A stretch of DNA of 64,000 bases from assembly GCA_040902225.1 (NCBI GenBank), contig JBBDXT010000004.1, positions 320,376 to 384,375 on the forward strand. The letters run 5' to 3'. The notes under the pieces were generated by a model. It did not search any database, had not been told where the DNA came from, and saw nothing but the letters and a program-made list of their open reading frames with translations. This DNA is from Chloroflexota bacterium (GTDB lineage Bacteria; Chloroflexota; Limnocylindria; QHBO01). Numbering within the stretch: the stretch's first letter is position 1; every line of letters begins with the position of its first letter. Of this stretch, positions 9,817-37,940 are shown in pieces. The position numbers and the translations under genes were made by a program.

Positions 9817-9881
9817 TTCGCCAGCCACCGCGCTGACGGCACGATTCGACCGATTCACGCGCATGGGGTACCGTTCGCCCG

Positions 9882-20786: not shown

Positions 20787-20863
20787 GGTGGCCTTAGCTC
20801 AACCGGCAGAGCATCGGATTGTGGATCCGAAGGTTACGGGTTCGACCCCCGTAGGCCACCCCA
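20787..20863 (+). tRNA. tRNA-His (anticodon GTG) with genomically encoded G-1 and 3' CCA
   Basis: The gene folds as a cloverleaf. The acceptor stem is GTGGCCT/AGGCCAC, the D arm GCTC..GAGC, the anticodon stem TCGGA/TCCGA with loop TTGTGGA (anticodon GTG), and the T arm ACGGG-TTCGACC-CCCGT. An extra G lies 5' of the acceptor, the discriminator is C, and CCA follows. Confidence 0.85.
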
Positions 20864-25351: not shown

Positions 25352-25371
25352 GCGACGAGGAGGGTAGCCCG

Positions 25372-25800
25372 ATGGCTGGGCGGTTCTGGGAGGCCTCTCC
25401 GGGCAGGGTCTGGGTCGGTCGCCTCGAGACGGGGGACGACCTGGTCGAGCAGATCGAGACCGTGTGCGCCGAGTACGGCGTGCGTGCGGCCTGGGTGAGC
25501 GCCATCGGCGCCGTGAAGCGCGCAGCGTTCGCCTATTACGAGCAGAACGACCGGCGCTACCTCGAGCTGGAGAGCAGCGAGCACCACGAGATCATCGGCT
25601 TCATCGGCAACATCTCGATCCGAGATGACCAGCCGTTCCTGCATGCGCATGCGACCTTCGGGGACCGCAGCGGGGCGGCCGTCGGTGGCCATCTGCTGCG
25701 GGGATGCGAGGTCTTCGCGGCGGAGATCCAGATCCGCGAGATGACCGGTGTCGAGCTGATTCGGACGCCGGACGAGGTGAGCGGCCTGGCCCTCTGGTAG
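25372..25800 (+). CDS. PPC/DUF296 domain protein (PCC-type putative DNA-binding protein)
   Basis: An internal ATG (MAGRFWEASPGRVWVGRLETGDDLVEQIE) with a GAGGAGGG RBS is the likely start. The conserved GNISIRDDQPFLHAHATFGD region is typical of the PPC domain. Confidence 0.6.
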   Translation: MAGRFWEASPGRVWVGRLETGDDLVEQIETVCAEYGVRAAWVSAIGAVKRAAFAYYEQNDRRYLELESSEHHEIIGFIGNISIRDDQPFLHAHATFGDRSGAAVGGHLLRGCEVFAAEIQIREMTGVELIRTPDEVSGLALW

Positions 25801-25828
25801 GGCAGTCACCCGTACAATGGCGCCTCGC

Positions 25829-25869
25829 GCGCCCGTAGCTCAGCGGACAGAGCGGGTGGCTTCGGACCA
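25829..25869 (+). repeat. partial tRNA-Arg(TCG) 5' half (acceptor, D-arm and anticodon stem), the left boundary (attL-like) of the tandem island array
   Basis: The sequence GCGCCCGTAGCTCAGCGGACAGAGCGGGTGGCTTCGGACCA is identical to positions 1-41 of the intact tRNA at 37819. It is followed by island-type left-end sequence (CCGATGCGCTGTGGCA.GAGCGTG...TTTTCCGCTGTCTGG). Confidence 0.75.
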
Positions 25870-26465
25870 AGAAGGCCGATGCGCTGTGGCATGAGCGTGC
25901 GGCGGGGAGCGAACGAGGCCGGGTTTTCCGCTGTCTGGAAGCCCTTTGCCTCACCAAGCGACGCGTCAGGAATCCCCGGTACAGGAGGGGTAGCCATCAG
26001 GGCTGCGAGGAGTGAGCCAGAAACTGAACCAGCCGGCATCGGTTGCAAAAGCGCCAGAGCCGAACCCATCGAGCCGAAGCTCGGGATGCGCATCGACCCC
26101 TATCCCTATCGGGTAGGTAGGAACTCCTCGCGCGCGCATGAGCCTCAGCGTCTCGAACGCCTGGGCCAGATCGAGATAGCCGCAGCGTTCCTTGCCCACC
26201 GGCCGGATTGGTCGCGGGGATCGCGTCATGCACCGATCGCCGGGCGTGGACGCGGCGAGCTCTCGATACTTCGCTGGACGCCGGGGCGGTGACCGTCGCA
26301 GCGCGGTTGACACTGGTCCGGTAGCCATTCGTCGCCCGCAGGATCGGGTCAGTGCGATCCGGAGCAGTTGCGAATGGCGCGTATACTTCGCCCGACGTTC
26401 GTCCATCCGGCGTCCATCCGGCGGCTGACTACAACCAACGGTCGAGCAGAGAGAGATATACCGCG

Positions 26466-27287
26466 ATGATCAAGGCTTCCCGTCGACGGTGGCTCGCCAT
26501 GGGTCTGGTCCTGGCGTTGATTGCCGCCTTCCCTAACGCAGCGGTCGCCAGCCATTCCTGGGGCAGCTACCACTGGGCCCGGACCACCGCCACGTTCACG
26601 CTGCTGGTGGGCGATAACGTCTCGAATACTTGGGACCCGTACCTCGATGGGGCCATCGCCGACTGGACTGCCGCGCCGAGTGACCCGACGGTCGCCGACC
26701 TGCTCGACCTGGCAGAAACTGCTGGCGGGACCAACCCCCGGAACTGCCGGCCGACGGCAGGACGGATCGAGGCCTGCAGCGCCAAGTACGGCTACACCGG
26801 CTGGCTCGGCCTGGCACAGATCTGGGTCAGCGGCAGCCACATCACGCGGGCCATCACCAAGGTCAACGACACCTACTTCAACACCGCGACCTACAACACC
26901 CCGGCCTGGCGTCGCCTGGTGATGTGCCAGGAGATCGCGCACGACTTCGGGCTCACCCACCAGGACGAGGTCTTCAACAACCGGAACCTGGGGTCGTGCA
27001 TGGACTACACCAACGATCCCGATGGCGGCCCCGGCGGTTTCGTGAACGACGATCCGTCCAACGAGCACCCCAACACGCACGACTTCGAGCAGATCCAAAC
27101 GATCTACGGGGGCCACACCGACAGCACCTCGACAGTCGGGCAGGTTACGGCGGCTGGAGCGCCGGGGAACGCTCCCGCCTCGTGGGGCCAACTCGTCCGC
27201 GGCTCGCGCGCGGCAGGCGTCAGCCTATATGTGCTGGATCTCGGGAACGGCCAGCGGGTCTACACCCACGTCATCTGGGCGCGCTGA
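26466..27287 (+). CDS. secreted metzincin-like protein with a variant zinc motif QEIAHDFGLTH and a Met-turn-like SCMDY
   Basis: The ORF 26352..27287 has an internal ATG start (MIKASRRRWLAMGLVLALIAAFPNAAVA) with a signal peptide. The motif matches HExxHxxGxxH except Gln replaces the first His, and a downstream CMDY resembles a Met-turn. Confidence 0.5.
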   Translation: MIKASRRRWLAMGLVLALIAAFPNAAVASHSWGSYHWARTTATFTLLVGDNVSNTWDPYLDGAIADWTAAPSDPTVADLLDLAETAGGTNPRNCRPTAGRIEACSAKYGYTGWLGLAQIWVSGSHITRAITKVNDTYFNTATYNTPAWRRLVMCQEIAHDFGLTHQDEVFNNRNLGSCMDYTNDPDGGPGGFVNDDPSNEHPNTHDFEQIQTIYGGHTDSTSTVGQVTAAGAPGNAPASWGQLVRGSRAAGVSLYVLDLGNGQRVYTHVIWAR

Positions 27288-27463
27288 GCAGTCCGCACCA
27301 TCACCTAAATCAGGACCCATCTTGGCCATAACGTCGCCGAAGAGCTCACGCAGCCGCTCCACCGTGCGACACTGCATCGGCGAGCGCACGCCGGCCGGCG
27401 GCGGCACATGTTTCGCGTTCGTTTTTAAGAGTTGCCCGATGAAGCCCTCGGACGAGGTGACGG

Positions 27464-27754
27464 TCACCGGCACCACGATCTGCCGCCTCTGAGCTGACCC
27501 CTCGGGCACACTCGCCAAATTCCTCCCGCCTCGACCAAACGGGCCTGTTCGAGGGCGCGCACGCTGGTCCCGCGCAGTGGTCCCGGCAGGCGCCGGATGC
27601 GGCCCTGATCCCATACCCCTCCGGTCGGCCACCAGCCGACGTGGTAGGCGAATACCCGTCCCTCTGGCGATTCCTCAATCGTGCCGAACTCCGTTCGACA
27701 TGTCTCGTGGCCATCGCACAGCACGCGGGTCCGGCCCTTGTCGAGACGCGGCAT
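27464..27754 (-). CDS. hypothetical 96-aa protein translationally coupled to the integrase 3' end
   Basis: The start overlaps the integrase stop (TGATG). The protein MPRLDKGRTRVLCDGHETCRTEFGTIEESPEGRVFAYHVGWWPTGG has no recognisable family. The coding call rests on its position and the coupling. Confidence 0.3.
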   Translation of the reverse strand: MPRLDKGRTRVLCDGHETCRTEFGTIEESPEGRVFAYHVGWWPTGGVWDQGRIRRLPGPLRGTSVRALEQARLVEAGGIWRVCPRGQLRGGRSWCR

Positions 27755-28690
27755 CAGCGCAGGCTCAGCCGTCGAGCGGCGTCGAGTGCGCGACCGCTGG
27801 CCGCCGACCGCGCGTAGCGAGACAACATCTCGCGGCTGCGCCAGCCGGCCAGCACCATGAGGTCACCTTCCTGCCCGCCGCCGCCAACCAGGCGTGGGCG
27901 TAGGAGTGCCGGAACTGGTGAGCGTGCAGGCCGGGGATGCCCGCCAGCCGCCCACGGCGGCGCAGGAGCTGGGCGATCCGCGAATCGGTCATGCGCCCCT
28001 TCTCGCCGAGCCACAGCCACGGCAGGGCGGCCTTGGAGTGCTGGCGCCGCGCGCGCCGGATGTAGCGATCGACCGCCTTGACGGCTTCGGCATTGAGGAA
28101 GCTGATCCGCTCGCGCCGGCCCTTGCCCTCACGGATACGCACCACGCCACGATCCAGATCAACATCGTTGGTATCCGGATCGTCGGGCGTCCAGCGCAGG
28201 TTGGCAATCTCCGACAGACGGGTGCCGGTCGAGAGGAAGGTGCGGACGATGGCGGTGTCGCGGAGATCCTCAGAGCGTGGGCCGCGGCAGGCGGCCAGGA
28301 TGCGGTCCTGCTCCTCGTCGGTCAGGACCGGCGGGGCGTGCTCGGGCAGCTTTGGCTTGCGCATCCGCGCCATGGGTGACTCGCGGATCTCGCCCTCCTC
28401 GACCAACCAGGCGAAGAACGGGCGGATGCCCGAGTAGCGGTTGGCAGCGGTGGCCGGCCGCCAGCGGGCGAGCTGATCCTCGATGAACGCTTCGAGGTGC
28501 TCCCTGCGGATGCTGGCCACGTCGGTCGGCATGCCCTGGCCTTCGAGGAAGGCGGACAGCCGATCGAGGGATGCCAGGTAGGTGCGTTGGGTGGCAGGGG
28601 AGAGGTTCGCCGCACGGAGGTTGCGGGCGAAGCTGGTCACGTTGGCGGCCAGGTCGCCACGGGTTACGATAGCGGCGGTGGGAGTGGCCG
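27754..28690 (-). pseudogene. tyrosine recombinase/phage integrase, disrupted by a C-terminal frameshift with the ancestral ATG replaced by ACG
   Basis: The N-terminal SAM-like core-binding region (TRGDLAANVTSFARNL...TQRTYLASLDRLSAFL) and the catalytic box LHAHQFRHSYAHAWLAAAG are in one frame. The C-terminal GDLMVLAGWRSREMLSRYARS, with the catalytic Tyr, is in another frame (ORF 27754..28020). The shift occurs at a GC run near 27871-27885. The homologous remnant at 34371 starts ATG CGG CCG where this copy has ACG CAG CCG. Confidence 0.7.
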
Positions 28691-28805
28691 GCTGCGTGGC
28701 TTGGAGCTCCGCTGGCGGGATTCCGAAGATCGGCGCCAGATGCGCTGTCCGAGCGCTGTGGTCAAGGCCATTTCCACTTTTCCGCTCTGTTTGAGCGTGA
28801 AACGC

Positions 28806-28843
28806 GCGCCCGTAGCTCAGCGGACAGAGCGGGTGGCTTCGGA
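28806..28843 (+). repeat. partial tRNA-Arg 5' half copy (junction of elements A and B)
   Basis: GCGCCCGTAGCTCAGCGGACAGAGCGGGTGGCTTCGGA matches tRNA positions 1-38. The homologous roughly 170-bp element-end sequence precedes it and the element left-end motif follows it. Confidence 0.75.
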
Positions 28844-29240
28844 GCAGCAACCCCGATGCGCTGTGGCAAGAGCGTGGCTTGTCGGGCGAAAGAACTCGAG
28901 TTTTCCGCTGTCTGGGACGCTTCGTCGCTTGGTCGCCAGCGGGCTTGTGTGTCGGCAGCGGTCTACTAGGGCAACGCGAAAGGACCCGCGGCGAGAACCT
29001 GCGCCCGAATTGCGTTGAGCGCGGGCAGGTTCTCACGAACCGACGCTATGAAATCTGGTGGCTGGGTCGCGGCTGAGGCGACGGTTGGGCTGACACCTGA
29101 TGGCCCTAGTACGTCACGCCGATAGGACATTGGCTGGCCACCGCGGCCGGACAGAGAGAGCTGGACGCCACGCTGTACCTGTCGATTCACCGGCTCGGGC
29201 CGCTTCGAAGCGCAAGACCCCTACAAGAGCACTTGGCTGA

Positions 29241-30545
29241 CTACACTGCAGCCTCCCCCGCCAACTTCCCACTGTAGAGGGCTCGCCCGTCCCGCCGCCA
29301 CCATCCGGTGGTGGCAGTTGGCGGCCCGCCGTCGGCGGTGGCCTTGACGGCCAAGGCCAACTCAGTTCGCCGAGGCGGCCAGCTGCGTACATCGAAGCAG
29401 CCCGGCTCGTAGGTCCCACGTGGCTCACGCAGCAGTGTCATCCAGTCGTAGGCTCCGAAGGCCGCCCATGCGGTGACTGCCAAGATTGGAATTCCGTGCC
29501 CGTGGGCTGTCATTGCAGCCGACCATGCCTCTGACCACCAAGCGACCTGATCGTCCAAGGGGCCGGCGAGGGCGATCTCGGTCAGCGCCAATGGACGTCG
29601 GTATCGCTGCCAGGTCTCGCGCAACACGCGGGGCAGGCCGGTCACATCGTAGCCTTCGACACGTGCCATCTCGACGTCCGCATAGGCCAGACGCCCGTCG
29701 CCTCCATGACTGGATTCTGGGAATAGGTCCAGGCGGTGATCGAGATAACGGTCACTCGTGATGTAGTGATCGATGCCGAGGACATCGGGTGGGGCGGGCT
29801 CACTGCTGAGCTTGTCCAGGATCAGTCGATGAGCCGGGGAGGCCGCCAGATACCTCCACAATGGGTGCGATCGGTCGACAGCCCCGGTCACCAGGTCAAA
29901 CGTCAGCCAGCGGCGATGGTTGTCGAAGTCAACCGCGGCCTGGCATTCCGCGGTCCCGTAGGTGCGCCCCACGTCCTCGTTCACGATGATGCGGGCTCCG
30001 GGGGTGACTGCCCTGATGGCGCGGGCCGCCTCGGTTAGGGCCTCCGCCTGCGAGAGGATTAGATGGCCGAAAATCGCGTGGTCGCGTGCGTACGGCGGCC
30101 ACCAGCCATACAGGCCGCCGAATCGAGCGGTTGTGAGCGCCTCGTTTATTGGGAGGTAGGTGCGGACTGCAGGAAAGCGGCGCGCAACCGTGGCCGCATA
30201 GTCCGCGAAGGCCGCAGCCCAGCCCGGTTGCCGCGGATCGGCTCCTCGCGGTCCGAAGCCATGATGGAGGAGGCCGACAACAGGCTCGACCCCGAAGGCA
30301 TTCATGCCGCCGATCCGCTCTTCTGCCCACTCCCAATCCGTGGCCTCCCTCGCATTGGAGGACCTTCCCCAGAGGACGGGATAGCGGACGGCGCGCGCGC
30401 CGAGGCTGGCCAGCCGCCCAAGGTCCGCAAGGCGCCGGTCATGCCCCGTGAGCGACAACTGATCGCGGATTCCGTTGCCCACCTTCAGGAATGAACACTC
30501 GGGACCTGCCCAGACTTCGGGCCCGCCCGTTGCTAGGCGGCCCAT
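29241..30545 (-). CDS. putative clan GH-A glycoside hydrolase (GH1-like TIM barrel)
   Basis: This 434-aa protein has an IIVNEDVG motif resembling the GH1 NEP acid/base and an LALTEIALAG motif resembling the ITENG nucleophile, at positions comparable to GH1. Its stop overlaps glf. Confidence 0.4.
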   Translation of the reverse strand: MGRLATGGPEVWAGPECSFLKVGNGIRDQLSLTGHDRRLADLGRLASLGARAVRYPVLWGRSSNAREATDWEWAEERIGGMNAFGVEPVVGLLHHGFGPRGADPRQPGWAAAFADYAATVARRFPAVRTYLPINEALTTARFGGLYGWWPPYARDHAIFGHLILSQAEALTEAARAIRAVTPGARIIVNEDVGRTYGTAECQAAVDFDNHRRWLTFDLVTGAVDRSHPLWRYLAASPAHRLILDKLSSEPAPPDVLGIDHYITSDRYLDHRLDLFPESSHGGDGRLAYADVEMARVEGYDVTGLPRVLRETWQRYRRPLALTEIALAGPLDDQVAWWSEAWSAAMTAHGHGIPILAVTAWAAFGAYDWMTLLREPRGTYEPGCFDVRSWPPRRTELALAVKATADGGPPTATTGWWRRDGRALYSGKLAGEAAV

Positions 30546-31672
30546 TCGCGAGACTCGGCGATCCTGCCGGCCGTGACCAGTGCCTGCCCGACGACCTGGT
30601 CCATGTTGTAGTACTTGTAGGTCCCGAGCCGCCCAGCGAAGTGCACCTGGGGGGCCTCGGCAGCGAGAGCCAGGTACCTCTGATATAAGGCTCGGTTCTC
30701 GTGTCGGGGGATCGGATAGAAAGGCTCCCCGGAAGATTCGGGGAACTCACGGACGATGGTAGTCACGTCATGGGATTGGCCCGTGAAGTGTCGGAACTCG
30801 CTGACACGCGTAAATGGCACGGCCTCATCCGGGAAGTTCACTGTCCCCGTCGGCTGATGCCGCTCTTCATCCAATGTCTCGAACTCAAACCGCAGGGAGC
30901 GGTATGGCAGCGGTCCGAATATCTGATCGAAATAGGCATCGATCGGCCCCGTGTACACAAGATGATCAAAGTCAAGCACGTGCCGAACATCGTGGAAGTC
31001 GACCCCGGTCCGCACCTCGATGCGCGGATGGGCGAGCATGCGCTCGACCATTTGGGTATAGCCGTGCGCGGGCATTGCCTGAAAACGATCTGTGAAATAG
31101 CGATCGTCCAGGTTGGTCCGGGCGGGGACACGGGCAGTTACCGACGCGTCCAGTTCGCTGGGGTCGAGCCCCCATTGCTTTCTCGTGTATCCCTGGAAAA
31201 AGAGCTCGTAAAGCTCGCGGCCGACCGAGCCGACCACAACCTCCTCGGACGTTCGGGGCGTCCCAACGGCCTCTGCGCGTTCGGCGTAGTACCGTGCGGT
31301 GCTCTCGTCATCGCCAAGGCCGACCGCGAACAGCTCGTTCAAGGTCGTCCGATTGATTGGGATCGGGACGAGCCGACCGCGCACGCAGGCGAGGACCCTG
31401 TGCTCGTACGGCCTCCAACCGGTGAACTGCGATAGGTACCCGAAGATGTCCGCCGAGTTCGTGTGGAAGATGTGAGGGCCATAGCGGTGGATCAGTACCC
31501 CTGCTTCGTCCAACTCGTCATACGTGTTGCCTCCGATATGCGCCCGACGGTCCATCACTAGGACTCGCCTACCGTGTTGGCTGGCCAGCTGCTCCGCGAT
31601 GACACTTCCGGACAACCCCGCCCCGACGACGACTACGTCGTAGCCCATCTCACAAAGCCTCCGCGCCGACAA
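30533..31672 (-). CDS. glf: UDP-galactopyranose mutase
   Basis: The N-terminal FAD-binding segment YDVVVVGAGLSGSVIAEQLA and the conserved HRYGPHIFHTN region are present, and the 379-aa length fits. Confidence 0.9.
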   Translation of the reverse strand: MSARRLCEMGYDVVVVGAGLSGSVIAEQLASQHGRRVLVMDRRAHIGGNTYDELDEAGVLIHRYGPHIFHTNSADIFGYLSQFTGWRPYEHRVLACVRGRLVPIPINRTTLNELFAVGLGDDESTARYYAERAEAVGTPRTSEEVVVGSVGRELYELFFQGYTRKQWGLDPSELDASVTARVPARTNLDDRYFTDRFQAMPAHGYTQMVERMLAHPRIEVRTGVDFHDVRHVLDFDHLVYTGPIDAYFDQIFGPLPYRSLRFEFETLDEERHQPTGTVNFPDEAVPFTRVSEFRHFTGQSHDVTTIVREFPESSGEPFYPIPRHENRALYQRYLALAAEAPQVHFAGRLGTYKYYNMDQVVGQALVTAGRIAESREWAA

Positions 31673-33077
31673 CGAGCGGAGCGGCCTGCAGCTCCTTAGC
31701 TGTGGACAGCCGCATGGGGACCGGCACGTGCACCAGGTGCGATGCGGAGCGCGCTGTCTCCGATTGCGAGCCGTTTGTCACCGCCTGTTCCACCAAGATG
31801 GCCATCGCGTCCCAGGTGCGGTCCCACGAGCCCATAGCGAGGAATTGGTCCGCTTGCCGTTGCGTCTCCGTCCCGTCCGCGCGCTGGGACTCCTCGACTG
31901 CCTCAATCGTCTCGTCGATCGAGTCCGCGATTCGTACCAGGCCACGTCGTCCGTAGGGCTCGATTACGTCCCGGATGGATGTGGATACGACCGGCAGACC
32001 GGCTGCGAGGTATTCGGGCGTCTTCGTTGGGCTGATGAAGGCGGTCGCCTCATTCCGTGCGAAGGGCATCCAGCCCACGTTCCAATGGGCGAGGTAGGAG
32101 GGCAGTTCGCCATAGGTCTTCCGCCCCAGCTGATGGATGTTCCGACGCGCTGGAATGGCAGCGGCAGCGATCTTGGCGAGTGGCCCGAGCAGGACGATCT
32201 GCCAATCCTGCCGGCGGGCTGCGACGCCGTCGATCAGGCCCAGGTCTAGTCGCTCGTCGATCACCCCGGCATAGCCCAGTCTCGGCATGGCGATGCTTCG
32301 CTGGTCGGCAGGGTCCGGCCGAGGCAGCCGGGCCGCGGCGAAATGTCGAACATCAATACTGCTTGGAAAGCAGTAGCTCGCCTGGTGCCGAGCGGCCAGT
32401 CGCTGATGGAGCCGCACTCCGCCGCTGAATACGAGATGCGCTCGGCCGAGGAGCTCATCCTCGAGGGACAGGAGGCACTCCGACGCCCCTCGGAAGCCGG
32501 CCAGGTAGTCCATGCAGTCATAGACCACGACGGAACTGGCAACATGCCTCGTCCAGGGCAGCGCCATCGGCGTGTAGTACCAGAGGATCGGAGCGTCGAT
32601 CTGCTCTGTTCCGATCAGGTCGTCGAGCAGGTCGGCAAGGAGCGCATTCGATTCCGGCGCCTCCATGCCCGTTGGGACGACAGGCGTCATGACACCGACG
32701 CCCTCGCGGTCAGTTCTCTGAATATGCGGGCGGGCACCTGGCTCGAAGCGCGCCTCCTCGATGAAAAAGACGCGCTTGCTCCGTGCGGCGCGAGCCATGA
32801 GGTGGTTGGGGCGCTGGTACACGAAGTCCCAGCGCAGATGAGACAGGCAGATAAGGTCTTCGGTCACGTCTTCTCCCCTCTTCGCAGTCTGGATTCCGGC
32901 GCGACGGCCGGCCACGGCGGGATGATCCTCGACCATCTGCTGCATCCCGCAAACAATCGGCGGGAGAAACATTTCAGGCTGATCGCAGCGCCCAGCCATG
33001 GGGTCGGCTGGGTGGAATTGGGAGGCCCACGAATCCACCCGAACGTGGGAGCGCCCGGTTCGCGTGACCTGCAACAC
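31650..33077 (-). CDS. glycosyltransferase family 4 (GT-B, RfaG-like)
   Basis: The C-terminal region EYLAAGLPVVSTSIRDVIEPYG is typical of a GT4 EX7E region, and ICLSHLRWDFVYQRPNHLM is typical of GT4 N-termini. The true start is probably an internal ATG around 32945, and the gene overlaps the glf start. Confidence 0.7.
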   Translation of the reverse strand: MLQVTRTGRSHVRVDSWASQFHPADPMAGRCDQPEMFLPPIVCGMQQMVEDHPAVAGRRAGIQTAKRGEDVTEDLICLSHLRWDFVYQRPNHLMARAARSKRVFFIEEARFEPGARPHIQRTDREGVGVMTPVVPTGMEAPESNALLADLLDDLIGTEQIDAPILWYYTPMALPWTRHVASSVVVYDCMDYLAGFRGASECLLSLEDELLGRAHLVFSGGVRLHQRLAARHQASYCFPSSIDVRHFAAARLPRPDPADQRSIAMPRLGYAGVIDERLDLGLIDGVAARRQDWQIVLLGPLAKIAAAAIPARRNIHQLGRKTYGELPSYLAHWNVGWMPFARNEATAFISPTKTPEYLAAGLPVVSTSIRDVIEPYGRRGLVRIADSIDETIEAVEESQRADGTETQRQADQFLAMGSWDRTWDAMAILVEQAVTNGSQSETARSASHLVHVPVPMRLSTAKELQAAPLVVGAEAL

Positions 33078-33130
33078 TCTTCTCAGTCGAACATCGGCCT
33101 CAGCGACAAGGCGTTCTAGGCGAGGGTCAT

Positions 33131-34009
33131 ATGAAGGTAGGAATCATCGTTCCCCAGGGCTGGACCGGCGAATACACCGGCTGGGACGCCGGCCGCGCGT
33201 GGGATCGGACTACGGCGGTGGCCCGGCAGGCCGAAGCGCTCGGATTCGAGTCGCTGTGGCTTTTCGACCATTTCCACACGGTCCCAAAACCCCGGCAGGA
33301 CATCACCTTCGAGTCGTTCACCACGCTGGCCGGCCTGGCGACCACCACAAAGCGCGCGCGGCTTGGCCAACTGGTCAATTGCGCGACCTACCGCAATCCA
33401 GCGCTAGTGGCGAAGATGATTTCGACGTTGGACACAATGTCAGGCGGTCGTATGGAACTCGGCCTGGGCGCGGGCTGGAAAGAGGACGAGTTTCGGGCGT
33501 ATGGGTACGGCTTCCCTTCGCTGGCTGAGCGCCATGCCCGGCTGGAAGATGCTCTGATCATTGCCAACCGGATGTTTCACGACGAGGAGGCCGTCTACAG
33601 GGGCAGCACCGCATCAGTCAACGGCGCGATCAATGTTCCGAAGCCGCAGCAAAGGCCCCGAATCCCCATCGTCGTGGGGGGCAATGGCCGGAACGTGACG
33701 TGGCGGTTGGCAGCGCGCCACGCCGATGAACTCAATCTTGATAACGTTCCCGTCCACGAAATCGAGGATGCCCTGGCGGTCGTGGCCGAGCGCTGCGCGG
33801 AAGTCGGCCGCGATGCTGCGACCCTCCCGGTCTCGGTCCATATCTGGTGGGAAACGCTGGTGAATCAGGACCCGGTCGAGCTACTGAGAGGATATCGCGA
33901 GGCGGGTGTCAGCCGGGTGATGGCCTTGGTCCGCGAGTCAGCTACCACCGACGATGCTCTCGTGCGATTGCGGGAGCAGGCCGGCGATGCAGGCGCTGAG
34001 TTTGATTGA
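33131..34009 (+). CDS. LLM class F420-dependent oxidoreductase (luciferase-like monooxygenase fold)
   Basis: The sequence MKVGIIVPQGW...FESLWLFDHFHTVP...LGLGAGWKEDEF is the typical LLM/F420-dependent family pattern. Confidence 0.8.
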   Translation: MKVGIIVPQGWTGEYTGWDAGRAWDRTTAVARQAEALGFESLWLFDHFHTVPKPRQDITFESFTTLAGLATTTKRARLGQLVNCATYRNPALVAKMISTLDTMSGGRMELGLGAGWKEDEFRAYGYGFPSLAERHARLEDALIIANRMFHDEEAVYRGSTASVNGAINVPKPQQRPRIPIVVGGNGRNVTWRLAARHADELNLDNVPVHEIEDALAVVAERCAEVGRDAATLPVSVHIWWETLVNQDPVELLRGYREAGVSRVMALVRESATTDDALVRLREQAGDAGAEFD

Positions 34010-34183
34010 GGCCGCGACGAACTAGAGAGACGCCGAACCTGATACAGCCGCATGCGCCTTGCCCGGGTCTGTACTCGTAACTCGCCACGCCGATTCGCGT
34101 CTTCGGGCTCGCTTAGCGTTCGCGGATTGTCGGCCGTCGCCGGCAGTACCTTGTTGTCCAGCGGCGAGGACCCGACGGCACCC

Positions 34184-34456
34184 TCAGAATCGCCGTCGAT
34201 GCTGCTTCGCGTCCACGATCCAAGCCAGTGATCGGGCCCTGACGAGCGCTGGGACGAACTTGACAAGAGGGCGTCCGATACTGGAAGACCGAGGTGGCGG
34301 GGGACAGGTTGGCCGCACGATGTGACGGGCGAAACTAACAACGTTGGCGGCCAGGTCGCCGCGGGTTAGGATAGTGGCGGTGGGATTAGCCGGCCGCATG
34401 GCTTGGAGCTCCGCTGGTGGGTTTCCGAAAATCAGCGCCAGGTTTACGTTTTCCAA
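34184..34456 (-). pseudogene. integrase N-terminal remnant of about 25 codons, then unrelated sequence
   Basis: The ORF carries MRPANPTATILTRGDLAANVVSFARH, homologous to the element-A integrase N-terminus, then diverges. The rest of the integrase has been deleted. Confidence 0.6.
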
Positions 34457-34508
34457 CCGCTGTGGTCAAGGCACGTTCCACTTTTCCGCTCTGTTTGAGC
34501 GTGAAACG

Positions 34509-34550
34509 CGCGCCCGTAGCTCAGCGGACAGAGCGGGTGGCTTCGGACCA
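34509..34550 (+). repeat. partial tRNA-Arg 5' half copy (junction of elements B and C)
   Basis: GCGCGCCCGTAGCTCAGCGGACAGAGCGGGTGGCTTCGGACCA is identical to the tRNA 5' half, and the element left-end motif follows it. Confidence 0.75.
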
Positions 34551-37500
34551 GCTACCCCGATGCGCTGTGGCACGAGCGTGGAACCCGTACCAAATGTGCC
34601 CTAGTTATCCGCTGTCGAGAAGCCCTCTCGCTTCGTCAGGACTGCCGCCGTGACAGACGGATTGCGCAGCTTGGCGTAGCGGCTCAGGTGGGAATCCACG
34701 AGGTGGAGCCTGGCACTGAGGCCAAGAGGGCCAGGGCAACCGCCTCGTCAGTCGTCATGCGGCGGCCCTCGGCCCACGCCGAGTCGAGAGCGGTCGCATC
34801 GAGCGCGTTGCGGAGCTGGCCAATCGCGGCGTCGTATTCGGCCCGTTCGTCCGAGAGCATCACTATTTCCGCGACCTCGCGGATCGCCTCCGCCGCACCC
34901 AACAGGCGGGCCGCACGTACGAAGTCGTGCTTTGCTGTCGCGAGGAACCCGAAGCACTCCAGCTGGTGGGCGATCGCGCCGCGGTTGCCCGCGTGCTGCC
35001 AGCCGCGCAGCGTTTCCCGGTACAGCTCCTCGGCCTCGTCGATCTCCCCGCCACGGCGCAGCGTGTGAGCGAGTTCGCTGCGCGTCCTGAGAACGGACCT
35101 GCGGTCGCCCATCTCCTCGTAACCCGCGATCGCCCTGCCCAGCCACTCTCGTGCCTCGGCCAACCGACCGGTGAAACCGCTCTGATCGCCGCGACTCCAT
35201 GCGATGAAGGCGATCGCACGCGGATTCCGGGAGCGATCGGCCGCCTCGGACGCCCTGAGTAGCCGGGCTTCGGCGCCCGCCATGTCACCATCGTCTGTCA
35301 TCTGAGAATAGGCGAGGCTTGCCTCGATCGTGGCAAGCGCTAACCAGTCGTGCCTCGACTCGGCCAGCCGGACCATCTCCTCTTCCAACTCGCGCGCCTC
35401 GCTCAACCGCCCTGAGAAGGACCTCGTCGTCGCCAGCGCAGCGAGCGCCTCTGACAGCGCCTCGTCGTCTTCGGCTCGGCGAGCCAGCGCCACGGCTTCC
35501 TCGGCCCATCGCCCGCCTGCGGCGTACTCCGCACCCCACGACGATGCATTCGCGGCGGAGGCGAACACCCTCGCGACTAGGATCGTTCGCTCGCGAGCGG
35601 CGGATGGCGCAGCAGGCGGCAGCCTCAATGCGAGCTCGGCCGCCTTGGCCATCCACTCGATGGCCTCGGAGCCAATCGATCGGGATCTCCAGTAGGCGGC
35701 CAGCGCCACCGACAGGCGCAGCGCCGCTTCTGGGTCCGCCTCGAATGACCACTCCAGCGCGGTGCGCAGGTTCTCCGCCTCGGAGTCCAGGCGGCTCAGC
35801 CATGCCACCATGTCCGGGCCCCGGAGTGCAGGCCCGGCCTCGCGTGCGAGGTCCAGGTAGAACGCAAGGTGACGGCCGCGGATCGCCAACACCTCGCCAG
35901 CGCTTGCGAGCCGGTCGCCGGCGTACTGCCGAATCGTCTCGAGGAGCCGATAGCGCGTGGGTCCACCCTGGTCGGCGACAACCAGCGAGCGGTCGACCAG
36001 GCGGCCGAGGCCGTCGAGCGTCTCGAGCAGCGTGTTCGCCTCGTCGTGACGCGCGCCGCCATCGTCTTCGTGCAGCCCCGCCACGGCCGCCGCCGCCTCC
36101 AACGTGCACCCCCCCGCGAAGACTGAGAGGCGCCGCAGGAACTGGCGGTCCGTCTCGGTCAGCAGGTCCCAGCTCCAGTCGACGAGCGCCTGCAGCGTCT
36201 GCTGGCGGGGTACGGCGCTGCGGCGGCCGCCGGTCAGGAGCCGGAACCGGTCGCCGAGCCCCCGCGCGATCTCCTGCGCCGAAAGATGAGTGACCCGCGC
36301 TGCGGCGAGCTCGATCGCGAGCGGGATGCCGTCAAGGCGACGGCAGATCTCGACCACTGCGGGCGCGTTGGCAGGCGTCAGCAAAAAGGACGAGAGCACC
36401 GCGCTCGCTCGATCGACGAACAGGCGGACCGCGTCAGCTGCGGCCGTCTCCTCGAACCAGCCCGCCGCCGGCTCGTCATGATCCTCGCCCTCGCCGATGG
36501 CGCCAGGTACGACCAGCGACGGGACCTGGAAGACCGTCTCCCCGGACACTCCGAGCGCCTCACGGCTCGACGCAAGCACGGCCAACGATGGACAGCTGGC
36601 GAGCAGGCGATCGACCAGATCCGCGGCCGCGCCGATGACATGCTCGCAGTTGTCGAGGAGCAGCACGAGGGACTTCGAGCGGAGAAAATCAACCAGCGTG
36701 TCGAGGACCGCCCGTCCGGGCTCGCCAGGCACTCCGAGCGCCCGGGCGACCTCGCTGACGATGAGATCGGGGCTGGGGACCGGGGCCAGCTCGACCAGCC
36801 AGACGCCGTCCGCCCGGCGCCCCAGGAGCTCAGCCGCAAGCTGGAGCATGAGTCTCGTTTTGCCCGTGCCGCCGGTTCCGATCAGGGTCACCAGGCGATG
36901 CGCCTCCGCCAGGGCGGCAAGATCCGCGAGCTCCCGTTCGCGGCCGACGAAGGAGGTCAGCTGCGCGGGGATATTGGTCAGCTCCACCCCGACGGACCGA
37001 AGCCCCGGAAACTCGGCTCGCAGGCCGGGGCCGATGAGCTGATGCAGTTGTGCCGGCGCATCGAAGTCTTTCAGGCGAAACTCTCCGAGCTCACGGAGCG
37101 CCAGCTCCTCGGGCAGCCGATCCCCCAGGACCGCAGCCATCGCCTGCGAGACCAGCACCTGGCCGCCATGGCCGGCTGCCGCGATGCGGGCGGCGCGGTG
37201 GACCTCGAGCCCAACGTAACCGCCGTCTCGGCGCGTGGCTTCGCCCACGTGGAGACCCATCCGCACGCGGAGATCGGCGCCGGGCGGCCATTCCGCGCCG
37301 GTCAGCGCGCGCTGGCCCTCCGCGGCGGCGCGCAACGCGTGGAGCGGGCTGCCGAACGCCACGAAGAACGAGTCGCCCTCGGTGCCAACCTCGAATCCAG
37401 CGTGGCGGGCAAACGCCTCGCGCAGGATCGACCGATGGCGCTCGAGAAGCGCCTCGTAGGCATCGGGCAGGCTGCCGGCGAGGCGCGTCGAGCCCTCGAT

Positions 37501-37860
37501 GTCGGTGAACAGGAACGCGACCGTTCCTGTCGGCGCCTCGGGCGGTCGTGGCTTCCGGCGCTGGTGAGGCGACTTGGCTGGCATGCGACCGATGGTACCG
37601 CTGCCCACAGTCGACCGAAACGGGCTTGGACCCAGCTCGGCCACGGCCCATGAGGTTTGGCGGCCAGGTCGCCGCGGGTTAGGATAGGAGCGGTGGGAGT
37701 GGCCGCCTGCGTGGCTTAGCTCCGCTGGCGGGATTCCGAAGATCGGCGCCAAACACGCTCTCCGAGCGCTGTGGTCAAGGCTATTTCCACTTTTCCGCTC
37801 TGTTTGAGCGTGAAATGTGCGCCCGTAGCTCAGCGGACAGAGCGGGTGGCTTCGGACCAT
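34551..37860. mobile_element. decayed integrative element C (single cargo gene: cyclase/NB-ARC/TPR STAND NTPase; integrase reduced to a roughly 20-codon remnant); its tRNA 5' half completes the intact tRNA-Arg
   Basis: The right end (37645-37818) is homologous to the ends of elements A and B and contains remnant integrase N-terminal codons, now read through into the cargo ORF. It is bounded on the left by the tRNA half copy at 34509 and on the right by the intact tRNA. Confidence 0.65.
34684..37584 (-). CDS. class III adenylate/guanylate cyclase domain fused to an NB-ARC/AAA+ (STAND) ATPase and C-terminal TPR-like repeats
   Basis: The true start is the ATG near 37584 (MPAKSPHQRR...). The cyclase motifs FLFTDIEGST, GDSFFVAF, RMGLHVGE and VHRAARI are present, followed by a P-loop LIGTGGTGKTRLM and Walker B LLLDNCEH, then about 500 aa of helical repeats. 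No C-terminal HTH is evident. Confidence 0.8.
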   Translation of the reverse strand: MPAKSPHQRRKPRPPEAPTGTVAFLFTDIEGSTRLAGSLPDAYEALLERHRSILREAFARHAGFEVGTEGDSFFVAFGSPLHALRAAAEGQRALTGAEWPPGADLRVRMGLHVGEATRRDGGYVGLEVHRAARIAAAGHGGQVLVSQAMAAVLGDRLPEELALRELGEFRLKDFDAPAQLHQLIGPGLRAEFPGLRSVGVELTNIPAQLTSFVGRERELADLAALAEAHRLVTLIGTGGTGKTRLMLQLAAELLGRRADGVWLVELAPVPSPDLIVSEVARALGVPGEPGRAVLDTLVDFLRSKSLVLLLDNCEHVIGAAADLVDRLLASCPSLAVLASSREALGVSGETVFQVPSLVVPGAIGEGEDHDEPAAGWFEETAAADAVRLFVDRASAVLSSFLLTPANAPAVVEICRRLDGIPLAIELAAARVTHLSAQEIARGLGDRFRLLTGGRRSAVPRQQTLQALVDWSWDLLTETDRQFLRRLSVFAGGCTLEAAAAVAGLHEDDGGARHDEANTLLETLDGLGRLVDRSLVVADQGGPTRYRLLETIRQYAGDRLASAGEVLAIRGRHLAFYLDLAREAGPALRGPDMVAWLSRLDSEAENLRTALEWSFEADPEAALRLSVALAAYWRSRSIGSEAIEWMAKAAELALRLPPAAPSAARERTILVARVFASAANASSWGAEYAAGGRWAEEAVALARRAEDDEALSEALAALATTRSFSGRLSEARELEEEMVRLAESRHDWLALATIEASLAYSQMTDDGDMAGAEARLLRASEAADRSRNPRAIAFIAWSRGDQSGFTGRLAEAREWLGRAIAGYEEMGDRRSVLRTRSELAHTLRRGGEIDEAEELYRETLRGWQHAGNRGAIAHQLECFGFLATAKHDFVRAARLLGAAEAIREVAEIVMLSDERAEYDAAIGQLRNALDATALDSAWAEGRRMTTDEAVALALLASVPGSTSWIPT

Positions 37861-37894
37861 CAGGTCGCGGGTTCGATTCCTGCCGGGCGCGCCA
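37819..37894 (+). tRNA. tRNA-Arg (anticodon TCG), intact
   Basis: The acceptor stem GCGCCCG/CGGGCGC, D arm GCTC-AGCGGACA-GAGC, anticodon stem GGTGG/CCATC with loop CTTCGGA (U33, anticodon UCG, G37), T arm GCGGG-TTCGATT-CCTGC, discriminator G and encoded CCA are all identifiable. Confidence 0.8.
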
Positions 37895-37940
37895 ACCCTC
37901 TATCAGCCGTATCGTGCGTTGGCGCCCTAGACTCCGCGAA

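What the first reader, a model, noticed from the sequence alone, without database searches (positions are those of the whole stretch)
25829..37894. Tandem array of three related, decayed integrative elements stacked at the 5' half of tRNA-Arg(TCG)
The 41-nt 5' half of tRNA-Arg (GCGCCCGTAGCTCAGCGGACAGAGCGGGTGGCTTCGGA) occurs four times, at 25829, 28806, 34509 and within the intact gene at 37819. Copies 2-4 are each preceded by a homologous element-end block of about 170 bp (GTTGGCGGCCAGGTCGCC...GCTGTGGTCAAGGC.ATTTCCACTTTTCCGCTCTGTTTGAGCGTGAAA) that encodes the integrase N-terminus on the minus strand. Copies 1-3 are each followed by a homologous left-end block (CCGATGCGCTGTGGCA.GAGCGTG...TTTTCCGCTGTCTGG). 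This is the footprint of three successive integrations of related elements into the same tRNA. Each element's attP supplied a new 5' half, which is why the duplicated segment is the 5' rather than the usual 3' part. The oldest element is leftmost. The cargo differs completely between the three (metzincin-like protein; Galf glycan genes plus F420 oxidoreductase; cyclase-STAND NTPase), while all three integrases are dead (frameshifted, 25-codon remnant, 20-codon remnant). This makes a fixed, modular accessory hotspot.
Basis: seen in the sequence. Interest (0 to 1): 0.75.

Follow-up and report, generated by a model that had tools for sequence, protein, structure and literature searches.

The report
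Three stacked mobile elements at tRNA-Arg
About 12 kb of this Chloroflexota genome is three small, related, now integrase-defective mobile elements inserted one after another into one arginine tRNA gene, a real and clean example of a known process in its rarer form, where the element replaces the front half of the tRNA.

Summary
The 38-nt 5' part of tRNA-Arg(TCG) occurs exactly four times (25829, 28806, 34510, 37819), where none is expected by chance. Copies 2-4 follow a homologous block of about 165 nt that holds the integrase start and upstream region. Copies 1-3 precede a homologous block of about 78 nt.

- A metagenome contig from a relative (about 81% nt identity) has the predicted empty site: PCC-domain gene, native upstream, intact tRNA-Arg, downstream membrane-protein gene.
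- A syntenic Chloroflexota MAG has a single, different 2.6-kb element with an intact integrase at the same tRNA.
- Among 80 genome loci with related Xer-like integrases, 59 have a tRNA 130-430 bp upstream of the int start. Sixteen also carry an exact half-tRNA repeat at the far end of the element (nine 5' halves, seven 3' halves).
- Element 1 keeps an integrase with one frameshift. Elements 2 and 3 keep about 36 and about 18 codons.

"Oldest is leftmost" is not supported, and "metzincin-like" rests only on a motif.

Tandem arrays at tRNA genes, islands marked by 5' fragments (159 of 3919 in Islander) and integrase-less remnants are all documented. This is a new member of a known kind. Interest is modest (0.35). 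The most notable point is that this integrase clade often integrates on the 5' side.

The parts
25816..25821 (+). TACAAT, a -10-like hexamer of the native tRNA-Arg promoter region. It is now separated from the functional tRNA by the array.
   Evidence: CC.TACAATGGCGCCTCGC directly precedes the intact tRNA in five unoccupied sites, L086-L090. TACAAT was not part of the search pattern. Its promoter function is inferred.
25829..25869 (+). Copy 1: the displaced chromosomal 5' half of tRNA-Arg(TCG), positions 1-41, with native upstream sequence (attL-type junction).
25870..25947 (.). Left arm of element 1. Motifs: GATGCGCTGTGGCA, GAGCGTG, TTTTCCGCTGTC.
   Evidence: The motifs are conserved in L006 and partly in L018.
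26499..27287 (+). Element 1 cargo: a 262-aa predicted secreted protein of unknown function, with a QEIAHDFGLTH...SCMDY motif.
   Evidence: Called as a gene in the NCBI MAG. No hit in Pfam, NCBIfam, PHROGs or PDB.
27754..28697 (-). Element 1 integrase pseudogene, a Xer-like tyrosine recombinase. It has one frameshift near 27879-27888, and ACG where relatives have the ATG start. An alternative GTG lies at 28640.
   Evidence: Pfam Phage_int_SAM_1 plus Phage_integrase, truncated at 139 of 172 profile positions. Frames. tblastn against the L006 integrase. Alignment.
28698..28805 (.). Right arm of element 1 (int-att intergenic region). It holds a TTGACC -35-like hexamer for int on the minus strand, the AGCGCTGTGG and TTTTCCGCTCTGT motifs, and the palindrome CGCTC-N5-GAGCG.
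28806..28846 (+). Copy 2: a tRNA 5'-half fragment (38 nt exact, G at position 39). An attP-like junction between elements 1 and 2.
28847..28925 (.). Left arm of element 2.
29241..30545 (-). Element 2 cargo: a weakly GH1-like glycosidase-fold protein.
   Evidence: PF00232 8.7e-05, below cutoff. TIGR03356 1.2e-09, far below cutoff.
30533..31672 (-). Element 2 cargo: UDP-galactopyranose mutase (Glf).
   Evidence: PF03275 1.1e-77.
31650..33077 (-). Element 2 cargo: a GT1/GT4-type glycosyltransferase. Gene callers start it at 32867 (NCBI MAG, 405 aa) or 32936 (Logan, 428 aa), inside the maximal ORF given here.
   Evidence: PF13692 1.6e-06. TuaH-like 3.9e-19, below cutoff. Gene calls.
33131..34009 (+). 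Element 2 cargo: an F420-dependent LLM-class oxidoreductase.
   Evidence: PF00296 3.6e-46. TIGR03560 253.7 bits, above the cutoff of 231.4.
34293..34399 (-). Element 2 integrase remnant: ATG plus about 36 codons (MRPANPTATILTRGDLAANVVSFARHI / RAANLSPAT) with an internal frameshift.
34400..34509 (.). Right arm of element 2. It keeps TTGACC-17-TAAACC on the minus strand (a putative int promoter) and both TTTTMCGCT motifs.
34510..34550 (+). Copy 3: a tRNA 5'-half fragment (41 nt). An attP-like junction between elements 2 and 3.
34551..34630 (.). Left arm of element 3.
34684..37584 (-). Element 3 cargo: a 966-aa adenylate/guanylate cyclase-STAND NTPase-TPR protein.
   Evidence: PF00211, AAA_22, nSTAND_NTPase5 and TPR_12. 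HTH_77 also listed.
37659..37712 (-). Element 3 integrase remnant: ACG at the start position, then ...TAPILTRGDLAA, about 18 codons. Homology stops at 37659.
37713..37818 (.). Right arm of element 3. It is now the only sequence directly upstream of the functional tRNA, so it presumably carries the tRNA's promoter.
   Evidence: The promoter role is inferred, and the sigma-70 consensus scan found nothing there.
37819..37894 (+). Intact, chimeric tRNA-Arg(TCG). The 5' half is element-derived and the 3' half is chromosomal (attR-type junction).
   Evidence: ARAGORN. Rfam RF00005 64.2 bits. The 3' half is unique in the window.

Best explanation
Window 25829-37894 is a tandem array of three small integrative elements of 2977, 5704 and 3309 bp. 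They entered the single tRNA-Arg(TCG) gene by tyrosine-integrase site-specific recombination at the anticodon stem-loop.

How each insertion works.
- Each element's attP consists of an int-proximal arm, a copy of tRNA positions 1 to about 41, and a distal arm of about 80 nt. The int-proximal arm holds the int promoter and 5' UTR plus repeated protein-binding motifs.
- Recombination joins the element's 5' half to the chromosomal 3' half. This makes a functional chimeric tRNA whose upstream region is element DNA.
- The old 5' half and the native TACAAT upstream region are pushed to the far side.
- Three such events by diverged relatives gave this order: native-5'half | E1 | 5'half | E2 | 5'half | E3 | tRNA. 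The internal junctions look like attP sites.

Afterwards the recombinases decayed. E1 acquired a frameshift, and E2 and E3 lost all but about 36 and about 18 codons by deletion. What remains is cargo:
- E1: a secreted protein of unknown function.
- E2: a galactofuranose glycan gene set plus an F420 oxidoreductase.
- E3: a cyclase-STAND signalling protein.

Shown: the repeat architecture, the insertion relative to an empty site, variable occupancy, the state of the integrases, and the family-wide link between integrase, tRNA and half-tRNA repeat.

Inferred: catalysis by these integrases, crossover in the anticodon loop, expression of the tRNA from element DNA, the number and order of events, and present immobility.
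For: - Four exact cores against none expected by chance. Arms are homologous in the predicted pattern.
- Empty site L086, with both flanks at about 81% nt identity.
- Syntenic L006 has one 2.6-kb element (intact 314-aa integrase plus a Kelch-repeat lipoprotein) and a 41-nt 5'-half repeat between the PCC homologue and tRNA-Arg.
- Intact integrases 70-80% identical to one another sit 163-165 bp from tRNA-Arg(TCG) in L006-L009.
- Right and left arm motifs are conserved across species.
- Half-tRNA direct repeats that end at position 39-42 or start at position 24-49 (mostly 28-33) delimit elements in 16 related loci.
- Cores are 100% identical while arms differ by 10-30%. For copies 2 and 3, 0.86^38 is about 0.003 if that divergence had arisen in place.
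- Each unit has its own integrase or integrase remnant.
- E2 is compositionally foreign: GC 64.0% against 68.7%, and GC3 0.75-0.77 against 0.77-0.91 in the flanking genes, five of six of which are at 0.86 or above.
- Literature. Tandem tRNA islands and 5'-fragment islands are catalogued (Islander, PMC4383910). The same stacking-and-decay model is described for tycheposons (bioRxiv 10.1101/2020.12.28.424599). For 5'-half integration, the tRNA is expressed from element sequences in pTN3-like elements, and this is 'seldomly encountered in bacteria' (PMC8371274).
Against: - No intermediate occupancy (one or two of these same units) was found in the same species.
- No circular or attP form of these units was found: the viral-contig pattern scan gave 0 hits.
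- No recognisable promoter for the tRNA was found in the right arm.
- No excisionase or transfer genes are present in any unit, so how such small elements move between cells is unknown.
- E1 and E3 right arms share ACG at the int start and a 3-nt deletion in a conserved motif. If these are inactivating lesions, they are hard to fit with two autonomous integrations.
- E1 and E3 have host-like composition.
- All sequences are MAG or metagenome assemblies.
Confidence: 0.85

Rival explanations
1. One event instead of three. A pre-assembled composite, such as an array or accreted element formed in another genome, integrated or was transferred as a single 12-kb unit. Alternatively, only some of the junctions arose in this lineage.
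For: Only two states of this locus were seen, empty (L086) and full (the window and GCA_040876205.1). Internal junctions are attP-like, so sub-arrays can in principle excise and reintegrate together, as described for accretion of ICEs with cis-mobilizable elements (literature listed; mechanism from my own knowledge).
Against: L086 is a different species-level lineage (about 81% identity), so the lack of intermediates says little. Each unit carries its own integrase remnant and diverged arms, so at least three separate integrations happened somewhere.
Confidence: 0.2
2. Elements 2 and 3 are not dead relics. They are integrase-less, cis-mobilizable cassettes that an integrase supplied in trans can still excise or move, either E1's if its frameshift is an assembly error or another copy in the genome.
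For: The cores are perfect and the arm motifs are retained at all four junctions. E2's right arm keeps both TTTTMCGCT motifs and the putative int promoter. E1's integrase has only one frameshift. Very small units with intact integrases exist, such as L006 at 2.6 kb and L060 at 2.2 kb.
Against: No other integrase of this family is present in the 64-kb window. The frameshift is present in two assemblies. No excised form or alternative junction was found. E1 and E3 arms lack part of a conserved motif.
Confidence: 0.2
3. In-place segmental duplication or homologous recombination of a tRNA-plus-integrase segment, followed by divergence and gene replacement. No repeated site-specific integration is involved.
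For: The E1 and E3 right arms are each other's closest match (90% over 165 nt) and share ACG and a 3-nt deletion.
Against: The non-functional core copies show 0 changes in 38-41 nt while the adjacent arms differ by 10-30%. The cargo is entirely different and the left arms are distinct. The architecture matches attL, attP-like and attR junctions exactly, and matches single elements in other genomes.
Confidence: 0.05
4. Assembly artefact. A metagenomic assembler chained separate population variants, each with one element at the tRNA, through the shared repeat.
For: All data are MAGs. Logan contigs break at every repeat. The NCBI MAG contig ends just before the tRNA.
Against: Two different assemblies give the same order. 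Exact repeats are at most 72 nt, which I judge shorter than typical short reads (my inference; read lengths were not checked). The flanking arms are distinguishable. The internal junctions pair the right arm of one unit with the left arm of another, which single-element variants would not produce.
Confidence: 0.05

Closest known systems
Tandem arrays of tRNA-gene-targeting genomic islands, as catalogued by Islander and TIGER (Hudson et al. 2015, PMC4383910; Mageeney et al. 2020, PMC7192596)
   Same: An intact tDNA lies at one end and direct-repeat tDNA fragments mark each unit. A tyrosine integrase sits next to the att site. Newcomers integrate into restored cores. An uninterrupted reference site exists.
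   Different: Here the 5' fragment is the one duplicated, which is 159 of 3919 Islander islands. The array has three units (Islander lists 4 arrays of three or more). Two units have lost their integrase, so Islander's tandem rule, which requires an integrase in each unit, would not resolve them. The units are very small (3-6 kb).
Tycheposons and tRNA-seeded genomic islands of Prochlorococcus (Hackl et al., bioRxiv 10.1101/2020.12.28.424599)
   Same: Small cargo-carrying elements have a tyrosine recombinase next to a tRNA. Several elements are stacked and separated only by partial tRNA copies. Degenerate integrases and stray partial tRNAs build up into a flexible-gene hotspot.
   Different: The host phylum is different. 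No replication module (helicase or primase) is present in these units. Whether the recombinases are related was not tested.
pTN3-like integrative plasmids and viruses of Thermococcales (Cossu et al. 2017, as reviewed in PMC8371274)
   Same: [quoted passage not shown] The restored tRNA must be expressed from element sequences.
   Different: Those elements are archaeal. As I recall, they use SSV-type integrases whose gene is split by integration, with the tRNA expressed from the int promoter. Here the integrase is Xer-like, attP lies about 110 bp outside the gene, and int and the tRNA are divergent.
CIMEs (cis-mobilizable elements) and site-specific accretion with ICEs. A same-phylum parallel is the tandem ssrA genomic islands of Dehalococcoides (PMC3146451).
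   Same: Units are bounded by att sites but lack their own recombinase, and they sit in tandem with a related integrase-bearing unit. In Dehalococcoides, also Chloroflexota, the islands stack at a small-RNA gene.
   Different: No conjugation or mobilisation genes are present, and trans-mobilisation is untested. The Dehalococcoides islands use the tmRNA gene, not the 5' half of a tRNA gene.

Membership tests
tRNA-targeting integrative genetic element (Islander/TIGER definition) | An intact tRNA gene at one end and a fragment of the same tRNA, in direct orientation, at the other end. | tested here: met
   three 5' fragments on the same strand, upstream of the intact gene.
tRNA-targeting integrative genetic element (Islander/TIGER definition) | Correct configuration: a 5' fragment lies upstream of the tDNA (or a 3' fragment downstream). 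| tested here: met
   for coordinates. The Islander configuration rule is quoted.
tRNA-targeting integrative genetic element (Islander/TIGER definition) | A tyrosine integrase gene inside each unit. | tested here: inconclusive
   E1 has a frameshifted but otherwise full-length integrase. E2 and E3 have only 36- and 18-codon remnants. The feature is met historically but not at present.
tRNA-targeting integrative genetic element (Islander/TIGER definition) | An uninterrupted target site in a reference genome (the TIGER criterion). | tested here: met
   L086 empty site with both flanks conserved.
Tyrosine recombinase, Xer-like ('simple', no arm-binding domain) | A SAM-like core-binding domain, a catalytic domain, and the R-K-HxxR-H/W-Y residues. 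| tested here: met
   PF02899 plus PF00589. The intact relative L006 has ARLSE, GKG, HSFRH, GW and SRY. E1 has the same residues split over two frames. Scores are far below the XerC/XerD equivalog cutoffs (137.9 against 335), so it is not a chromosomal Xer orthologue.
Cis-mobilizable element (CIME) | Flanked by att sites of a related integrase-bearing element and lacking its own recombination module. | tested here: met
   E2 and E3.
Cis-mobilizable element (CIME) | Excision or mobilisation by an integrase supplied in trans. | not testable with these tools
   Needs read-level junction analysis or an experiment.
Tycheposon | A tyrosine recombinase of the tycheposon clade, and for the PICI-like members a replication module. 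| not tested
   No tycheposon recombinase sequences were compared. No helicase or primase was found in E1-E3. The array works like a tycheposon island, but membership is not claimed.
pTN3-like / SSV-type integrase element | attP lies inside the integrase gene, so integration splits the gene. | tested here: not met
   The core lies about 110 bp upstream of the int start. Intact integrases sit next to intact tRNAs in L006-L009.
Prophage or phage satellite | Phage structural, packaging or replication genes inside the unit. | tested here: not met
   None in E1-E3. Relatives do carry them: L018 has an HK97-type capsid (PF05065 5.9e-26) and a major tail protein (phrog_158), and L081 has a capsid. 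Five IMG/VR contigs encode 40-50% identical integrases. Phage ancestry is plausible.

The most novel reading that the evidence does not exclude
The array is one visible product of an undescribed, widespread gene-shuttle system in Chloroflexota and Actinomycetota. It uses a clade of arm-less, Xer-like integrases with three properties.

(i) They mostly insert on the promoter-proximal (5') side of tRNA genes and so bring their own tRNA upstream region.

(ii) Related lineages have switched between the 5' and 3' sides of the same tRNA. For Val-TAC this is validated by direct repeats in L043 and L026, whose integrases are 61% identical.

(iii) They carry minimal units (int plus 1-4 cargo genes, 2-6 kb) that stack like cassettes. 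These units stay recombination-competent in trans after losing int.
Probability: 0.15. Interest if true: 0.6.

Novelty: new member of a known kind. Interest (0 to 1): 0.35.

Why it matters
The array explains about 12 kb of accessory genes in a poorly studied soil and sediment phylum: a galactofuranose glycan module, an F420 enzyme, a cyclase-STAND sensor and a secreted protein. It also gives exact insertion boundaries.

It is a clear bacterial example of the minority mode in which an element replaces the 5' half of a tRNA gene and the sequence immediately upstream of it. The literature calls this mode seldom seen in bacteria.

The integrase clade behind it appears to favour that mode. Among 59 tRNA-adjacent loci, the tRNA 5' end faces int in 41, compared with about 4% 5'-fragment islands in Islander. 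This clade would be a good system for two questions: how the tRNA stays expressed after its promoter is displaced, and how the side of integration is determined. As a phenomenon it does not change current understanding.

Tried and rejected
- Sigma-70 promoter scan of 25600-38100. It gave one hit, no more than in shuffles, and nothing upstream of the tRNA or int. The promoter statements therefore rest on conservation and inference only.
- Rfam at a permissive threshold over 25-39 kb. It found only the intact tRNA, so there is no other RNA element in the blocks.
- A degenerate right-arm-plus-core pattern in viral contigs. It gave 0 hits, so no free attP was found.
- Exact-protein look-ups. The downstream gene 39317-41362 is not on record. 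The E1 cargo and the E3 STAND protein are found only in the same NCBI MAG. No alternative occupancy states were recovered.
- Pfam, NCBIfam, PHROGs and PDB searches of the E1 cargo and of small ORFs 25966-26406 and 27464-27754 (the PDB search covered the cargo only). There were no hits, so no excisionase was found and 'metzincin' stays unconfirmed.
- GC3-based gene calling on relatives' elements. It worked poorly on the lower-GC islands L043 and L071, so only selected ORFs were annotated.
- The L022/L027 pair (integrases 72% identical, Gly-TCC, apparently on opposite sides) was not used as evidence of side switching. L027's 'tRNA' is a 3' half joined to a non-tRNA 5' part, and neither element has a far-end repeat.
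- An integron-like cassette array was considered and rejected, because each unit carries its own integrase remnant.
- Williams 2002 (PMC100330) is not held in the library. It is cited only through PMC8371274.


Full report
**1. Observation**

None of 100 dinucleotide-preserving shuffles gave a match. Only the last copy is a full tRNA: tRNA-Arg(TCG), 37819-37894 (ARAGORN; Rfam 64.2 bits). The 3' half of the tRNA occurs only once in the window.

Exact shared blocks are 38-44 nt. Copies 1, 3 and 4 share tRNA positions 1-41, and copy 2 has G at position 39. Copies 2 and 3 share 72 nt exactly.

- Copies 2-4 are preceded by a homologous right block, 82-90% identical over 165 nt.
- Copies 1-3 are followed by a homologous left block, 70-73% identical over 78 nt, with conserved motifs.
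- Copy 1 is preceded by unrelated sequence.
- Copy 4 is followed by the rest of the tRNA.

**2. Gene content**

- E1 (25829-28805) carries a 262-aa predicted secreted protein with no family assignment. It also carries a Xer-like tyrosine integrase on the minus strand (Phage_int_SAM_1 plus Phage_integrase). This integrase is 72% identical to an intact relative over residues 6-270. The reading frame then shifts near 27879-27888, and the catalytic-tyrosine segment (LAGWRSREMLSRY) continues in another frame.
- E2 (28806-34509) carries a weakly GH1-like protein, UDP-galactopyranose mutase (1e-77), a glycosyltransferase and an F420-dependent LLM oxidoreductase (TIGR03560, above cutoff). It also has a 36-codon integrase remnant that keeps its ATG (34399 to 34293).
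- E3 (34510-37818) carries one 966-aa cyclase-STAND-TPR gene and an integrase remnant of about 18 codons (37712 to 37659).

**3. Is it real DNA?**

An NCBI MAG contig (GCA_040876205.1, JBBDPP010000120.1) matches window 23131-37815 with one mismatch and no gaps, and ends just before the tRNA. It therefore shares the frameshift. Per-run Logan contigs are 100% identical to the unique segments and break inside the repeats, as expected for short exact repeats. Exact repeats are at most 72 nt and the neighbouring arms are distinguishable, so I consider mis-chaining unlikely.

**4. Empty site and variable occupancy**

I searched metagenome contigs for the native upstream 10 nt fused to the uninterrupted tRNA, and found five contigs.
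FtsX and PCC genes (81% nt identity to window 23486-25798) are followed by the native upstream sequence and the intact tRNA. The same downstream membrane-protein gene comes next (80.7% identity to 37819-38459).
- The 11,990 bp between copy 1 and copy 4 are therefore an insertion at the tRNA.
- All five unoccupied sites share CC.TACAATGGCGCCTCGC immediately upstream of the tRNA. TACAAT was not part of the query. This suggests the native -10 element, which in the window is stranded next to copy 1.

A syntenic Chloroflexota MAG (L006) has homologues of the left and right flanking genes at 51-77% amino-acid identity. It has a single 2.6-kb element at the same tRNA: an intact 314-aa integrase and a Kelch-repeat lipoprotein, bounded by an exact 41-nt 5'-half repeat.

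**5. The integrase family**

A genome scan returned 80 loci encoding relatives, mostly from Chloroflexota and Actinomycetota/Acidimicrobiia MAGs.
- In 59 loci, ARAGORN finds a tRNA or tRNA-like gene 130-430 bp upstream of the int start. In 41 the tRNA 5' end faces int, and in 18 the 3' end does.
- Nine loci of the first type have an exact direct repeat of tRNA positions 1 to about 40 on the int side: L006, L018, L043, L060, L065 (two repeats), L071, L072, L080, L081. Element sizes are 2.2-11 kb.
- Seven loci of the second type have a repeat of the tRNA 3' part, starting at position 24-49 (mostly 28-33) and running to about 76: L026, L030, L031, L055, L057 (several repeats), L073, L074.
- The breakpoints meet at the anticodon stem-loop.
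- Integrases cluster by target tRNA.
- The nearest relatives of E1's integrase (L006-L009 intact; L018 with two frameshifts) all sit 163-165 bp from tRNA-Arg(TCG).
- Arms are conserved across these species at non-coding positions: TTTTMCGCTSW (twice in the right arm, once in the left), AGCGCTGTRG and GAGCGTG. These include a palindrome, CGCTC-N5-GAGCG, next to the tRNA. The palindrome recurs in arms aimed at other tRNAs.
- On the int strand, TTGACY-17 nt-TAAAAC followed by GGAG and ATG is conserved (reading). This is a plausible int promoter.
- Larger relatives carry phage genes: an HK97-type capsid and a major tail protein in L018, and a capsid in L081. Five IMG/VR contigs encode 40-50% identical integrases. 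The lineage therefore probably descends from temperate phages or satellites.

**6. Mechanism**

The best-supported model is classical attP x attB recombination at the anticodon loop, with attP carrying the tRNA 5' half.

The internal junctions (copies 2 and 3) each join the right arm of one unit, the core, and the left arm of the next. This is the structure expected between tandem units.

Cores are identical while arms differ by 10-30%. For copies 2 and 3, the chance of no change in 38 nt at the arm divergence is about 0.003. The units therefore diverged elsewhere, under the constraint of matching attB, and were not duplicated in place.

A consequence is that the functional tRNA now has element DNA upstream, and the native TACAAT region lies 12 kb away. 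Element-driven tRNA expression is described for archaeal pTN3-like elements, and the review says it is seldom encountered in bacteria (PMC8371274). I could not find a consensus promoter in the right arm, so this step is inferred.

**7. What is not supported**

- 'Oldest is leftmost'. A newcomer can use any restored core, so topology does not give the order. The cores carry no substitutions. The least decayed integrase is in the leftmost unit.
- E1 and E3 right arms are each other's closest match. They share ACG in place of the ATG start and a 3-nt deletion in the distal motif. This hints at a shared lineage, or at arm exchange within the array.
- Composition marks only E2 as foreign: GC 64.0% against 68.7%, and GC3 0.75-0.77 against 0.77-0.91 in the flanking genes, five of six of which are at 0.86 or above.
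- No excisionase, replication or transfer genes were found. How such small units move between cells is unknown.

**8. Comparison with what is known**

- Islander lists 3760 islands with 3' fragments and 159 with 5' fragments. It lists 125 tandems of two or more units and 4 of three or more (PMC4383910).
- TIGER's authors describe how restored cores allow tandem arrays (PMC7192596).
- The tycheposon paper describes stacked elements separated by partial tRNAs, together with degenerate integrases.
- Dehalococcoides, also Chloroflexota, stacks islands at ssrA (PMC3146451).

The finding is therefore a new member of a known kind, in a rare configuration. The more interesting lead is at family level. 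This clade seems to prefer the 5' side, and related integrases use the same tRNA from opposite sides. For Val-TAC both sides are validated by repeats: L043 on the 5' side and L026 on the 3' side, with integrases 61% identical.

**9. Verdict**

Confidence in the tandem-integration model is 0.85. Interest is 0.35.

Noticed in passing
L006-L085 (genome loci); tree: The integrase clade groups by target tRNA. In 41 loci the tRNA 5' end faces int, and in 18 the 3' end does. Related integrases use the same tRNA from opposite sides. For Val-TAC, L043 has a 5' repeat (positions 1-42) and L026 has a 3' repeat (positions 33-76), with integrases 61% identical. Met-CAT shows the same split: L051 and L058 against L052 and L074.
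   Followed up: partly
L071:1680-1725 and L071:20555-20594, around tRNA-Val(CAC) at 9744-9818: One tRNA gene has a 3'-half repeat on its 3' side and a 5'-half repeat on its 5' side. Elements are therefore inserted on both sides of the same tRNA.
   Followed up: no
L065:9849-20044; L057:9784-17885: Two other tandem arrays occur in the family. L065 is a 5'-type array at tRNA-Arg(TCT), with two fragments, a DUF1883-TIR protein and a Fic protein (defence-like or toxin-like cargo). L057 is a 3'-type array at tRNA-Gly(TCC), with three or four fragments.
   Followed up: partly
L018:1605-10286: This 8.7-kb unit sits at tRNA-Arg(TCG), and its integrase is among the closest relatives of E1's. The integrase has two frameshifts. 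The unit carries HK97-type capsid and major-tail-protein remnants, which suggests the lineage derives from a small temperate phage or satellite.
   Followed up: partly
window 28698-28805 and 37713-37818 against 34400-34509: The right arms of E1 and E3 share ACG where E2 and all relatives have the integrase ATG. They also share a 3-nt deletion that removes part of the distal TTTTACGCT motif and the putative int -10 (TAAAAC). This points to a shared lineage or to arm exchange within the array.
   Followed up: partly
window 25809-25828; L086-L090 upstream of the tRNA: The native upstream sequence CC.TACAATGGCGCCTCGC is identical in five unoccupied tRNA-Arg(TCG) sites whose further flanks are unrelated. 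It is probably the tRNA promoter -10 and leader. In the window it now faces into E1, on the same strand as the E1 cargo gene.
   Followed up: partly
right arms of 5'-type loci and arms of 3'-type loci L026, L052, L074: A palindrome, CGCTC-N5-GAGCG, lies 10-25 nt from the tRNA in arms aimed at different tRNAs (Arg-TCG, Arg-CCG, Thr-CGT, Arg-TCT, Lys-TTT). Many 3'-type arms carry repeated GATAACTG motifs. These are likely recombinase or accessory-protein binding sites.
   Followed up: no
window 37950-39143 (+): A polytopic membrane-protein gene lies just downstream of the tRNA and has no Pfam or NCBIfam hit. It is present in the empty-site contig L086 but absent from the syntenic L006, where the tRNA abuts the homologue of 39317-41362. 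The long ORF 37815-39143 that overlaps the tRNA is a spurious extension of this gene.
   Followed up: partly
L027:2495-2571: ARAGORN calls a tRNA-Gly here, but only the 3' 52 nt match a real tRNA-Gly(TCC), at 94% to L022. The 5' part is not tRNA-like. It is an att fragment miscalled as a gene, and a caution for the 41-versus-18 counts.
   Followed up: yes
window 20788-20863: tRNA-His(GTG) lies 5 kb left of the array. The His...Arg synteny is kept in L006, where the two are 8.9 kb apart with one element between them, against 17 kb here.
   Followed up: partly
window 37584-37712 (-): The STAND-cyclase gene of E3 starts 72 nt downstream of the integrase remnant, on the same strand. After the deletion it may be transcribed from the former integrase promoter region.
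   Followed up: no
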